Made by a program: the position numbers and the translations under genes. This document shows, piece by piece, positions 31,693 to 33,102 of a stretch of DNA of 40,902 bases. Source of the DNA: an uncultured Verrucomicrobiota bacterium (GTDB taxonomy: Bacteria; Auribacterota; JABMQX01; JAFGEW01). Location of the stretch: positions 1-40,902 of the forward strand of contig CAZJXV010000003.1 in NCBI GenBank assembly GCA_964550015.1, read 5' to 3'. Every line of letters begins with the position of its first letter. The stretch's first letter is position 1. Below the pieces are notes generated by a model. The model ran no database searches and was not told where the DNA came from. It saw nothing but the letters and a program-made list of their open reading frames with translations.

Positions 31693-33102
31693 ATGGCAGG
31701 CGCCCTTTTCCTGCCGAAAGCCAAGGCCACCATCGTTCAGGAGGCGACGCTGCACGTGCTCGAAAGGACCGGCGTGTACCTTGACCACGAGGAAGCCGAG
31801 GCGCTCTTCCTCGACAACGGGGCGACCAAGGACGAGTTCGGCCGGATCCTCTTGCCGCGTGCGATGGTCAATCAAGCGCTCGAGACGGTCTGTGACCGCG
31901 TGCAGTTCTACGATCGTGACGGCAACCGCTCGATCGTCGTGCGCAACGGCAAGACCTCCTTCGGCCCTGGCTCGGACGCCCTCTACAACATGGACGCTGA
32001 GACGGGCGAGCTGCGGCGCTCGGTGCTTGCCGACGTAGCGCGCAACGTCACCGTGGCCGATGCGCTGCCCGGCTTCGATTTCGTCATGTCCATGGCGTTG
32101 CCCGCCGACGTGCCACCGTACAAGACGTATGCCACAGTGTTCGCCGAGATGGCGCGCCACACAACCAAGCCGCTCGCGGTCACGGCCTCCTCGCTCGACG
32201 ACACAAAGCAGATTCACAAGGTCGCTTCGCTTGTCGCCGGCGGTGAGGATGCGCTCAGGAGTAAGCCCTTCTACATCGCGTCCCTCGAGCCGATCTCGCC
32301 GCTCAAGATGGATCGCTCGAGCACGGAGCGCCTGCTCTATTGCGCCGAGCACGGCATCCCGTTCGTCTACGCCTCGGGCGCCAACTGCGGCAGCGGCGCG
32401 CCCGTCACACCGGTGGGTGGGCTCGTGCAGGGTTCAGCGGAGTCGCTCTCCGGCCTCGTGCTCGCCATGCTCAAGAACGAGCAGGCGCGCTTCGTCTACG
32501 GCTCGAACACATCCGTGCTCGACATGACGACGAGCATCGTCTCGTAGGGCGCCCCGGAGTGGTTCAAGACCGTGGCCATGTACGCCGACATGGGCAAGTT
32601 CTTCGACCTGCCGAGCTGGGGCACGGCCGGGTGCAGCGATTCGTTCTCCATCGACGCGCAGGCGGCGCTCGAATCGTATGAGGGGATCCTCCTTGCGGCG
32701 CAGTCGGGCACCACGCTCGCGCACGACGTCGGTTACCTGGCCCACGGCGCATTGTACGACCCGCGTATGCTCGTGCTCACCGACGAGATGGTCAACCGGG
32801 CGCGGTTCCTCATGAAGGAAGCCGACCTCACGGAGAAATCGCTCGCCGTGGACGTCATTGACGAGGTTGCGCGCATGAACGACCTCTATCTCGCCCACCC
32901 GCACACGTCGGAAGTGTTCCGGACGTCGCTCTGGCTGCCGCCCGCATATATCAACCGGCGCAACATCGCCGATTTCTCGCTGGGCCACGACCTTGCTGGC
33001 ATGCTCAGCGAGCGCGTCCAGGGAATCCTTTCCACCCATACGCCAAAGCCGCTGCCCACGGACACCCTCGACGCTATCCACGCATACCTGAACTCGATCT
33101 GA
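31693..33102 (+). CDS. MttB-family methyltransferase with a single in-frame TAG at 32545-32547 (candidate pyrrolysine codon, or a nonsense pseudogene)
   Basis: Track ORFs 31693..32547 and 32572..33102 share one frame and no other stop lies between them. The read-through sequence ...LDMTTSIVS-TAG-GAPEWFKTVAMYADMGKFFDLPSWGTAGCSDSFSIDAQAALE is collinear with paralogue 1 (...LDNLNDMY-GAPEFNHYLLDAAQMARHYGLPCYSSAGVGDTSVPGIQATAE). A GGGAGG RBS precedes ATG 31693. Confidence 0.7.

What the first reader, a model, noticed from the sequence alone, without database searches (positions are those of the whole stretch)
32545..32547. In-frame amber codon in an MttB-family gene, immediately before the conserved GAPE motif: candidate pyrrolysine site or fresh nonsense mutation
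The two track ORFs (31693..32547 and 32572..33102) are in the same frame and are separated only by TAG. The 8 codons between the TAG and the first possible restart (GTG 32572) encode GAPEWFKT. G-A-P-E is conserved in paralogue 1 (DMY-GAPEF), so homology runs straight through the stop and the joined product (469 positions) has normal family length. The founding members of this family (Methanosarcina MttB) carry exactly one in-frame UAG, decoded as active-site pyrrolysine in the second half of the protein. Most bacterial homologues do not, and Pyl-encoding bacteria are rare. Three points argue caution. The TAG aligns with Tyr312 (TAC) of paralogue 1, so one TAC-to-TAG change would also produce it. 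TAG terminates at least four other genes in this window (12167, 29996, 39049, 39302). No pylTSBCD or corrinoid genes are visible here.
Basis: partly seen in the sequence, partly recalled or inferred. Interest (0 to 1): 0.8.

Follow-up and report, generated by a model that had tools for sequence, protein, structure and literature searches.

The report
Nonsense mutation in non-pyrrolysine MttB gene
The in-frame TAG is real, but it replaces a conserved tyrosine 29 residues before the pyrrolysine position, so it is an ordinary recent stop-codon mutation that truncates a methyltransferase gene and is not a pyrrolysine site.

Summary
TAG at 32545-32547 is the only interruption of a 469-codon MttB-superfamily gene (31693-33102), and homology runs through it. 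The pyrrolysine reading fails its own test. In the alignment with M. barkeri MttB (PDB 7xcl), Pyl334 pairs with Cys314 of this protein (TGC 32632-32634). Codon 285 pairs with Val305, 29 residues upstream. All 28 aligned homologues and all 11 genomic loci (44-84% identity) have Tyr (TAC/TAT) at codon 285, Cys or Ser at the Pyl column, and no internal stop. The closest orthologue has TAC, so one C-to-G change explains the TAG. TAG ends 4 of the other 21 genes in the window, always as TAGG, the same context as the internal one. One of these stops is conserved in the orthologue. No tRNA-Pyl, pyl gene, corrinoid-protein gene or downstream RNA structure was found in the window. The allele is not an artefact: four other assemblies carry the identical gene on 99.94-100% identical DNA. 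dN/dS after the stop is 0.044, with no second lesion, so the mutation is recent. Verdict: a fresh nonsense pseudogene, fixed in a near-clonal uncultured population. Low interest.

The parts
31693..33102 (+). MttB-superfamily (non-pyrrolysine) methyltransferase gene of 469 codons, interrupted once at codon 285
   Evidence: Pfam MTTB on both halves at contiguous profile positions. More than 100 uninterrupted homologues, most close to 469 aa, best 84% identity. NCBIfam TIGR02369 scores 286 bits against a cutoff of 525.
31682..31687 (+). Shine-Dalgarno-like GGGAGG, 5 nt before ATG 31693
   Evidence: Read directly from the sequence.
32545..32547 (+). In-frame TAG replacing a conserved Tyr codon (TAC in the closest orthologue and in paralogue 1). 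The change is at 32547, C to G.
   Evidence: An identical TAG is present in 4 other assemblies.
31693..32547 (+). Truncated ORF that is actually terminated (284 aa)
   Evidence: Gene callers in JGI, ENA and Logan data called this exact product.
32548..33102 (+). Stranded 3' part (184 codons plus TGA), still intact. Possible restarts at GTG 32572 and ATG 32578. GGAG at 32556-32559 lies 12 or 18 nt upstream of them.
   Evidence: dN/dS against the orthologue is 0.044. JGI and ENA called a 174-aa ORF here.
32632..32634 (+). TGC, Cys314: the codon that really occupies the pyrrolysine column (Pyl334 of M. barkeri MttB)
   Evidence: Alignment to PDB 7xcl_A, 'GSXSDA' against 'AGCSDS'. Cys (Ser in some) in all homologues.
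22510..31587 (+). Upstream genes on the same strand: MarR regulator (22510-23205), MttB paralogue 1 (23287-24795), 431-aa protein with weak methyltransferase similarity (24792-26087), ABC ATPase (26127-26882), permease fused to an OpuAC betaine-binding domain (26882-28495), AsnB-like protein lacking Cys2 (28500-29996), and asparagine synthase B (30046-31587)
   Evidence: The same order, minus the second asnB, is found at the orthologous locus L005/L006.
21719..21951 (.). Left copy of a 233-nt direct repeat that flanks the whole cluster. It holds a 3' fragment of tRNA-Arg(ACG) on the minus strand and a GC-rich hairpin.
33428..33660 (.). Right copy of the 233-nt direct repeat (91% identical), about 325 nt after the interrupted gene

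Best explanation
The gene at 31693-33102 encodes a non-pyrrolysine member of the MttB superfamily. These are TIM-barrel methyltransferases that act on quaternary amines or other methylamines. It is the last gene of a cluster that includes a betaine-type ABC importer. A single C-to-G transversion at 32547 turned the conserved Tyr285 codon TAC into TAG. UAG is an ordinary terminator in this organism, so translation should stop there (inferred) and release a 284-residue fragment. By homology to M. barkeri MttB, the stop corresponds to residue 305. The fragment therefore lacks about 90 of the 314 TIM-barrel residues, the dimerisation loop and the C-terminal segment. It also lacks the Pyl-column residue Cys314 and the positions that match three of the four substrate-binding residues of MtgB. 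The enzyme is therefore most likely inactive (inferred). The mutation is recent, because the downstream part carries no second lesion and shows strong past purifying selection. It is nevertheless fixed in a near-clonal environmental population sampled in at least five assemblies. Shown: the position of the stop, conservation of Tyr at that column, the non-Pyl column, normal use of TAG as a terminator, and recurrence of the allele. Inferred: termination at this codon and loss of function.
For:: Pyl334 ('X' in 7xcl_A) aligns with Cys314, and codon 285 aligns with Val305 of MttB and Ile of MtgB. PMC9842639 identifies Pyl334 as the active-site residue and gives TIM barrel 82-395, dimerisation loop 396-452 and C-terminal segment 453-495; more than 100 uninterrupted homologues, with Tyr at column 285 in all 28 aligned. 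TAC or TAT in all 11 genomic loci (44-84% identity), none with an internal stop, and TAC in the closest orthologue (81% nucleotide identity). TAG ends 4 of the 21 other genes, all as TAGG like the internal one, and no other gene has an internal TAG; the TAG stop of the AsnB-like gene is conserved in the orthologue (498 aa in both). TIGR02369 (Pyl-type TMA methyltransferase) scores 286 bits against a cutoff of 525; no tRNA-Pyl, pyl genes or corrinoid protein in the window; no stable RNA structure after the TAG (z=+0.35); identical gene DNA with TAG in JGI 3300029267, ENA ERZ27256770, SRR14699969 and SRR6963479, on DNA 99.94-100% identical to the window; dN/dS is 0.164 before the stop and 0.044 after it; no other lineage among the best 120 hits has a product ending at this column. 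PMC13080624 combined with the alignment: MtgB residues R312, H348 and F356 map to positions 309, 344 and 352, all after the stop.
Against: Only 41 kb of the genome is available, and the species is absent from the GTDB representative collection. The absence of a Pyl system or of an amber suppressor tRNA elsewhere in the genome could therefore not be checked. The downstream part is perfectly intact, and the allele is fixed across several samples. This would also be expected if the full-length protein were still made by read-through. The strains differ by only 0.02-0.06%, so there is no power to detect decay since the mutation. No expression or protein data are available.
Confidence: 0.9

Rival explanations
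1. The UAG is decoded as pyrrolysine, or read through in some other programmed way, and a full-length enzyme is made.
For: The family's founding members use UAG-encoded Pyl (PMC9842639). The downstream reading frame is intact and was strongly constrained. The allele is fixed in five assemblies.
Against: The TAG is not in the Pyl column, which holds Cys314. The column is Tyr in every homologue, and no other lineage has a stop there. The protein scores far below the Pyl-MttB equivalog cutoff. TAG is a conserved terminator in this lineage, in the same TAGG context. No pylT, pyl genes or corrinoid protein occur in the window. No downstream RNA structure was found. A text search found no report of pylS in the PVC phyla that the best named hits of the neighbouring AcrB-family transporter point to.
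Confidence: 0.03
2. The gene now works as a two-piece enzyme. The 284-aa N-terminal fragment and a C-terminal fragment re-initiated at GTG 32572 or ATG 32578 assemble into an active TIM barrel.
For: Start codons lie 8 and 10 codons after the stop, and a GGAG lies upstream of them. Gene callers predicted a 174-aa downstream ORF. The downstream part is intact.
Against: Re-initiation would drop Y285-GAPEWFKT. That stretch includes the invariant G286 and the nearly invariant Y285, P288, W290 and T293. The GGAG is simply the conserved Pro-Glu-Trp codons, and its spacing of 12 or 18 nt is poor. No similarly split homologue appears among the best 120 hits for the N-terminal fragment. The intact state is equally explained by the mutation being recent.
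Confidence: 0.05
3. The TAG is a sequencing or assembly error, and the real genome has TAC.
For: A single-base difference from the orthologue's codon.
Against: The same base appears in four other assemblies from different sources (JGI, ENA and two Logan runs). Two of those contigs differ from the window at 3 and 11 other positions.
Confidence: 0.01

Closest known systems
Non-pyrrolysine MttB-superfamily methyltransferases (MtgB, MtcB, MtpB, MtyB and uncharacterised clades; Pfam PF06253)
   Same: Full-length similarity to MtgB (PDB 9yce and 2qne, E about 1e-38) and to MttB. A sense residue (Cys) sits at the Pyl column. The gene is linked to an OpuAC-type betaine importer.
   Different: Of the four glycine-betaine-binding residues of MtgB (Y97, R312, H348, F356; PMC13080624), only the His is kept. 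The others are S94, W309 and G352 (alignment), so the substrate is probably not bound as in MtgB. No corrinoid-protein gene lies nearby. This copy carries a premature stop.
Pyrrolysine-containing trimethylamine methyltransferase MttB (M. barkeri, PDB 7xcl; NCBIfam TIGR02369)
   Same: Same fold family, with alignment over residues 15-464 (E=1e-36). One in-frame TAG in the second half of the gene.
   Different: The TAG is 29 residues upstream of the Pyl column, at a conserved Tyr. The Pyl column holds Cys. The score is 286 bits against a cutoff of 525. No MttC or pyl genes are nearby.
Ordinary nonsense-mutation pseudogenes in accessory gene clusters
   Same: A one-base change from a conserved sense codon. 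The stop codon is otherwise used normally. The gene sits at the edge of a repeat-flanked cluster next to a tRNA-Arg integration hotspot.
   Different: Nothing unusual, except that the allele is fixed in a population recovered in several public assemblies.

Membership tests
Pyl-containing MttB (trimethylamine:corrinoid methyltransferase) | In-frame UAG at the column of Pyl334 | tested here: not met
   Pyl334 of 7xcl_A aligns with Cys314 (TGC 32632-32634). The TAG (codon 285) aligns with Val305.
Pyl-containing MttB (trimethylamine:corrinoid methyltransferase) | Score at or above the NCBIfam TIGR02369 equivalog cutoff | tested here: not met
   286.1 bits against a cutoff of 525.
Pyl-containing MttB (trimethylamine:corrinoid methyltransferase) | pylT, pylS and pylBCD present in the genome | not testable with these tools
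   None in the 41-kb window. The species is not in the genome collection.
Pyl-containing MttB (trimethylamine:corrinoid methyltransferase) | Cognate corrinoid protein gene (mttC) adjacent | tested here: not met
   No B12-binding domain in any window ORF scanned.
MttB superfamily (Pfam PF06253) | Significant full-length match to the MTTB profile | tested here: met
   The N-terminal part matches profile positions 36-305 (111 bits) and the C-terminal part 311-492 (76 bits), against a cutoff of 25.
MtgB (glycine betaine:corrinoid methyltransferase) | Substrate-binding residues Y97, R312, H348, F356 (PMC13080624) | tested here: not met
   They map to S94, W309, H344 and G352 in the alignment, so only the His is conserved.
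Nonsense-mutation pseudogene | Stop at a column that is a conserved sense codon in orthologues, one base change away | tested here: met
   Tyr in 28 of 28 aligned proteins and TAC or TAT in 11 of 11 loci. TAC in the closest orthologue.
Nonsense-mutation pseudogene | The same stop codon works as a terminator elsewhere in the organism | tested here: met
   4 of the 21 other genes end in TAG. The AsnB-like gene's TAG is conserved in the orthologue at the same length.
Nonsense-mutation pseudogene | No full-length product is made | not testable with these tools
   This needs proteomics or expression data.

The most novel reading that the evidence does not exclude
The amber codon at a conserved Tyr is tolerated because this uncultured bacterium partly reads UAG through. 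The means could be an unseen suppressor tRNA, a Pyl system or near-cognate tRNA-Tyr. The full-length enzyme would then still be made at a reduced or regulated level, which would explain why the allele is fixed and the 3' part is intact.
Probability: 0.04. Interest if true: 0.55.

Novelty: already known. Interest (0 to 1): 0.1.

Why it matters
It matters mainly as a negative result. An in-frame TAG in an MttB-family gene is not evidence for pyrrolysine unless it falls in the Pyl334 column. Here it does not, so the organism should not be counted as a candidate Pyl decoder, and the two ORF fragments should be annotated as one pseudogene. A minor point of interest is that a loss-of-function allele in a betaine-type uptake and methyltransferase cluster is fixed in a population recovered in several public metagenomes.

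Tried and rejected
1. I looked for tRNA-Pyl or any RNA family in the window. ARAGORN gave only a doubtful 87-nt tRNA-Ala inside the ORF of the AcrB-family transporter gene, and Rfam gave nothing.

2. I looked for a PYLIS-like or read-through structure after the TAG. The fold is no better than shuffled sequence.

3. I tried to find the organism's genome in order to search it for pyl genes.

4. I tried to name the organism from the AcrB-family transporter. The best named hits are a Verrucomicrobia MAG (84%) and Planctomycetota (77%), which only suggests the PVC group.

5. I searched papers for the sample accessions and found none. A search for pylS together with PVC phyla found no relevant report.

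6. I searched with the 284-aa fragment alone to reveal split homologues hidden by gene callers. None ends at this column. The three short hits end elsewhere, two of them (P0242, P0255) with tails unrelated to the family sequence, as after a frameshift.

7. I searched PDB and Pfam at loose thresholds for the 431-aa cluster protein. Only weak SAM-methyltransferase similarity appeared.

8. I did not run a structure prediction, because the tool returns no coordinates and the domain boundaries are available from the MttB crystal-structure paper.

Full report
**Observation.** The window has TAG at 32545-32547. It lies in frame between the ORF 31693..32547 (284 aa) and a frame that continues for 184 more codons to TGA at 33100-33102. 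The eight codons after the TAG encode GAPEWFKT, followed by GTG 32572 and ATG 32578. Both pieces match Pfam MTTB (PF06253) at consecutive profile positions, 36-305 and 311-492 (E=5e-32 and 1.6e-21). This is therefore one interrupted gene of 469 codons, which is the length of most homologues. A strong GGGAGG lies 5 nt before the ATG.
- Paralogue 1 (23287-24795) has NDM-Y-GAPEF with Tyr312 = TAC.
- TAG ends the genes at 12167, 29996, 39049 and 39302.
- No pyl or corrinoid genes are visible in the window.

**Is codon 285 the pyrrolysine site?** No. A phmmer search of PDB sequences aligned the joined protein with M. barkeri MttB (7xcl_A, E=1e-36) over residues 15-464. The pyrrolysine of that chain (X334 in 'GSXSDA'; Pyl334 according to PMC9842639) pairs with Cys314 of this protein ('AGCSDS', TGC at 32632-32634). 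Codon 285 pairs with Val305 of MttB and with an Ile of the glycine betaine methyltransferase MtgB (9yce/2qne), directly before the conserved G-[AS]-P-E. The TAG is thus 29 residues upstream of the Pyl column. The protein also scores only 286 bits against NCBIfam TIGR02369, the equivalog model for Pyl-type trimethylamine methyltransferases, whose cutoff is 525. It belongs to the broad non-pyrrolysine part of the superfamily.

**What do relatives have at that column?**
- A search of 5.8 billion proteins gave 866 hits. More than 100 are uninterrupted full-length proteins, the best at 84%, 82% and 69% identity.
- In an alignment of 28 of them, including paralogue 1, column 285 is Tyr in every sequence (…IVS-Y-GAPEW…). 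The Pyl column is Cys in most and Ser in some.
- At the DNA level, the closest orthologue (L005/L006, 81% nucleotide identity) has TAC. Nine further genomic loci (44-69% identity) have TAC or TAT, and the remaining locus (L016) shows Tyr in its translation (codon not read out). None of the ten loci whose gene stretch was checked has an internal stop.
- Gene callers would split any TAG-containing relative and push the fragments down a hit list. I therefore repeated the search with the 284-aa fragment alone.
- Among the best 120 hits, only the window's own product ends at this column. The three short hits end elsewhere, two of them (P0242, P0255) with tails unrelated to the family sequence, as after a frameshift.
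- There is thus no conserved amber codon here. A single C-to-G change at 32547 (TAC to TAG) accounts for it.

**Is TAG a stop in this organism?** Yes, as far as the window shows. Four of the 21 other genes end in TAG. All four are followed by G, the same TAGG context as the internal one. The TAG of the AsnB-like gene (28500-29996) is conserved, at the same protein length of 498 aa, in the orthologue. No other real gene has an internal TAG. The 121 nt around and after the TAG fold no better than shuffled sequence (z=+0.35).

**Is it an artefact?** No. The exact 284-aa product, on gene DNA identical over all 1410 nt (or as far as the contig reaches), including the TAG, is present in JGI 3300029267, ENA ERZ27256770, and Logan assemblies of SRR14699969 and SRR6963479. 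The longer two contigs are 99.94% and 99.98% identical to the window, with 11 and 3 mismatches, none of them in this gene. The allele is therefore real and fixed in a near-clonal population sampled repeatedly.

**How old is it?** Against the orthologue, Nei-Gojobori dN/dS is 0.164 for codons 1-284 and 0.044 for codons 286-469. There is no second lesion. The 3' part was under strong purifying selection for essentially all of the divergence, so the stop is recent. The strains that share it differ too little (0.02-0.06%) to show decay since then.

**Consequence (inferred).** The MttB structure paper gives the TIM barrel as residues 82-395, the dimerisation loop as 396-452 and the C-terminal segment as 453-495 (PMC9842639). 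Termination at the equivalent of residue 305 removes about 90 barrel residues and everything after them. It also removes the Pyl-column residue and the positions that match three of the four substrate-binding residues of MtgB. R312, H348 and F356 (PMC13080624) map to 309, 344 and 352 in the alignment. The 284-aa fragment is most likely inactive. Re-initiation at GTG 32572 or ATG 32578 would lose Y285-GAPEWFKT, which includes the invariant G286 and the nearly invariant P288 and W290, so a functional two-piece enzyme is unlikely.

**Context.**
- The gene is the last of a same-strand cluster: MarR regulator, MttB paralogue 1 (24% identical), a 431-aa protein with weak methyltransferase similarity, an ABC ATPase, a permease fused to an OpuAC betaine-binding domain, an AsnB-like protein without the Cys2 nucleophile, and a bona fide asparagine synthase B.
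- The order is conserved in the orthologous locus, except that the second asnB is absent there.
- Only the His of MtgB's glycine-betaine site is conserved, and no corrinoid protein is encoded nearby. The substrate and methyl acceptor therefore remain unknown.
- The AcrB-family transporter encoded nearby has its best named hits in a Verrucomicrobia MAG (84%) and Planctomycetota (77%).
- The species is not in the GTDB representative collection. A genome-wide search for pyl genes or suppressor tRNAs was therefore not possible, and this is the main untested point.

**Verdict.** The pyrrolysine interpretation is refuted by the alignment and by conservation of Tyr. The 'fresh nonsense mutation' alternative is well supported (confidence about 0.9). 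The feature is an ordinary recent pseudogene in a non-pyrrolysine MttB-superfamily gene, and interest is low. The most novel reading not excluded is leaky or programmed read-through that keeps the enzyme alive (about 4%).

Noticed in passing
window 21719-21951 and 33428-33660 (also a 41-nt partial copy at 33245-33285): A 233-nt direct repeat (91% identical) brackets the whole MarR-to-MttB cluster (about 11.7 kb). Each copy carries, on the minus strand, about the 3' 45 nt of a tRNA-Arg(ACG) gene followed by a GC-rich hairpin. Neither copy is a complete tRNA. The cluster looks like an integrase-less island or a scar of repeated integration at tRNA-Arg.
   Followed up: partly
L005 6358-6407 and 15643-15717 (orthologous locus, ENA ERZ27256778 k141_1688573): In the closest related species, the intact MttB orthologue is followed by a 50-nt tRNA-Arg fragment. 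Next comes a region of about 9.3 kb with HTH, Mu-like/phage capsid and integrase genes, and then a complete tRNA-Arg(ACG). This is a classic integrated element at the same site.
   Followed up: partly
window 28500-29996 and 30046-31587: There are two adjacent asparagine-synthase-like genes. The first starts MPGIAGI, so it lacks the Cys2 glutaminase nucleophile, and it scores below the AsnB cutoff (319 against 499 bits). Its orthologue in L005 (MAGIAGI) also lacks the Cys. The second is a bona fide AsnB (553 bits) and is absent from the orthologous locus, which suggests an insertion just upstream of the mutated gene.
   Followed up: partly
window 24792-26087: A 431-aa protein with only weak SAM-methyltransferase similarity (Methyltransf_25, 22.8 bits, below cutoff) and no PDB match. 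Its start overlaps the stop of MttB paralogue 1 (ATGA). In L006 the equivalent stretch is called as two ORFs (240 and 189 aa).
   Followed up: partly
window 19869-19955: ARAGORN calls an 87-nt tRNA-Ala(TGC) inside the AcrB-family transporter ORF (16918-20073). Rfam finds no tRNA there at gathering score, so it is probably a false positive.
   Followed up: partly
window 31693-33102 (protein positions 94, 285, 309, 314, 344, 352): This MttB clade has a nearly invariant Tyr285 (Val in MttB, Ile in MtgB) and Cys or Ser at the Pyl column. It keeps only the His of MtgB's four glycine-betaine-binding residues. No corrinoid-protein gene is nearby. This is probably an uncharacterised substrate class.
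   Followed up: no
window 40469-40902 (minus-strand gene 39302-40897) and L001 18777-20855: The window ends inside tandem repeats of about 235 nt (84-96% identical), matched by Flg_new_2 (InlB B-repeat) in a large secreted protein with beta-helix and dockerin domains. In L001 the gene is 1497 aa or longer. The repeats probably caused the contig break. Seven of the 11 SNPs against L001 lie here.
   Followed up: no
window 7584-15214, 34452-39049: Several very large predicted secreted proteins combine right-handed beta-helix/NosD, Chlamydia PMP repeats, TSP3 repeats and C-terminal dockerin domains. A Peptidase_C25-dockerin protein is also present. In L001 its gene is called 61 codons longer, associated with a SNP at 37633.
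   Followed up: no
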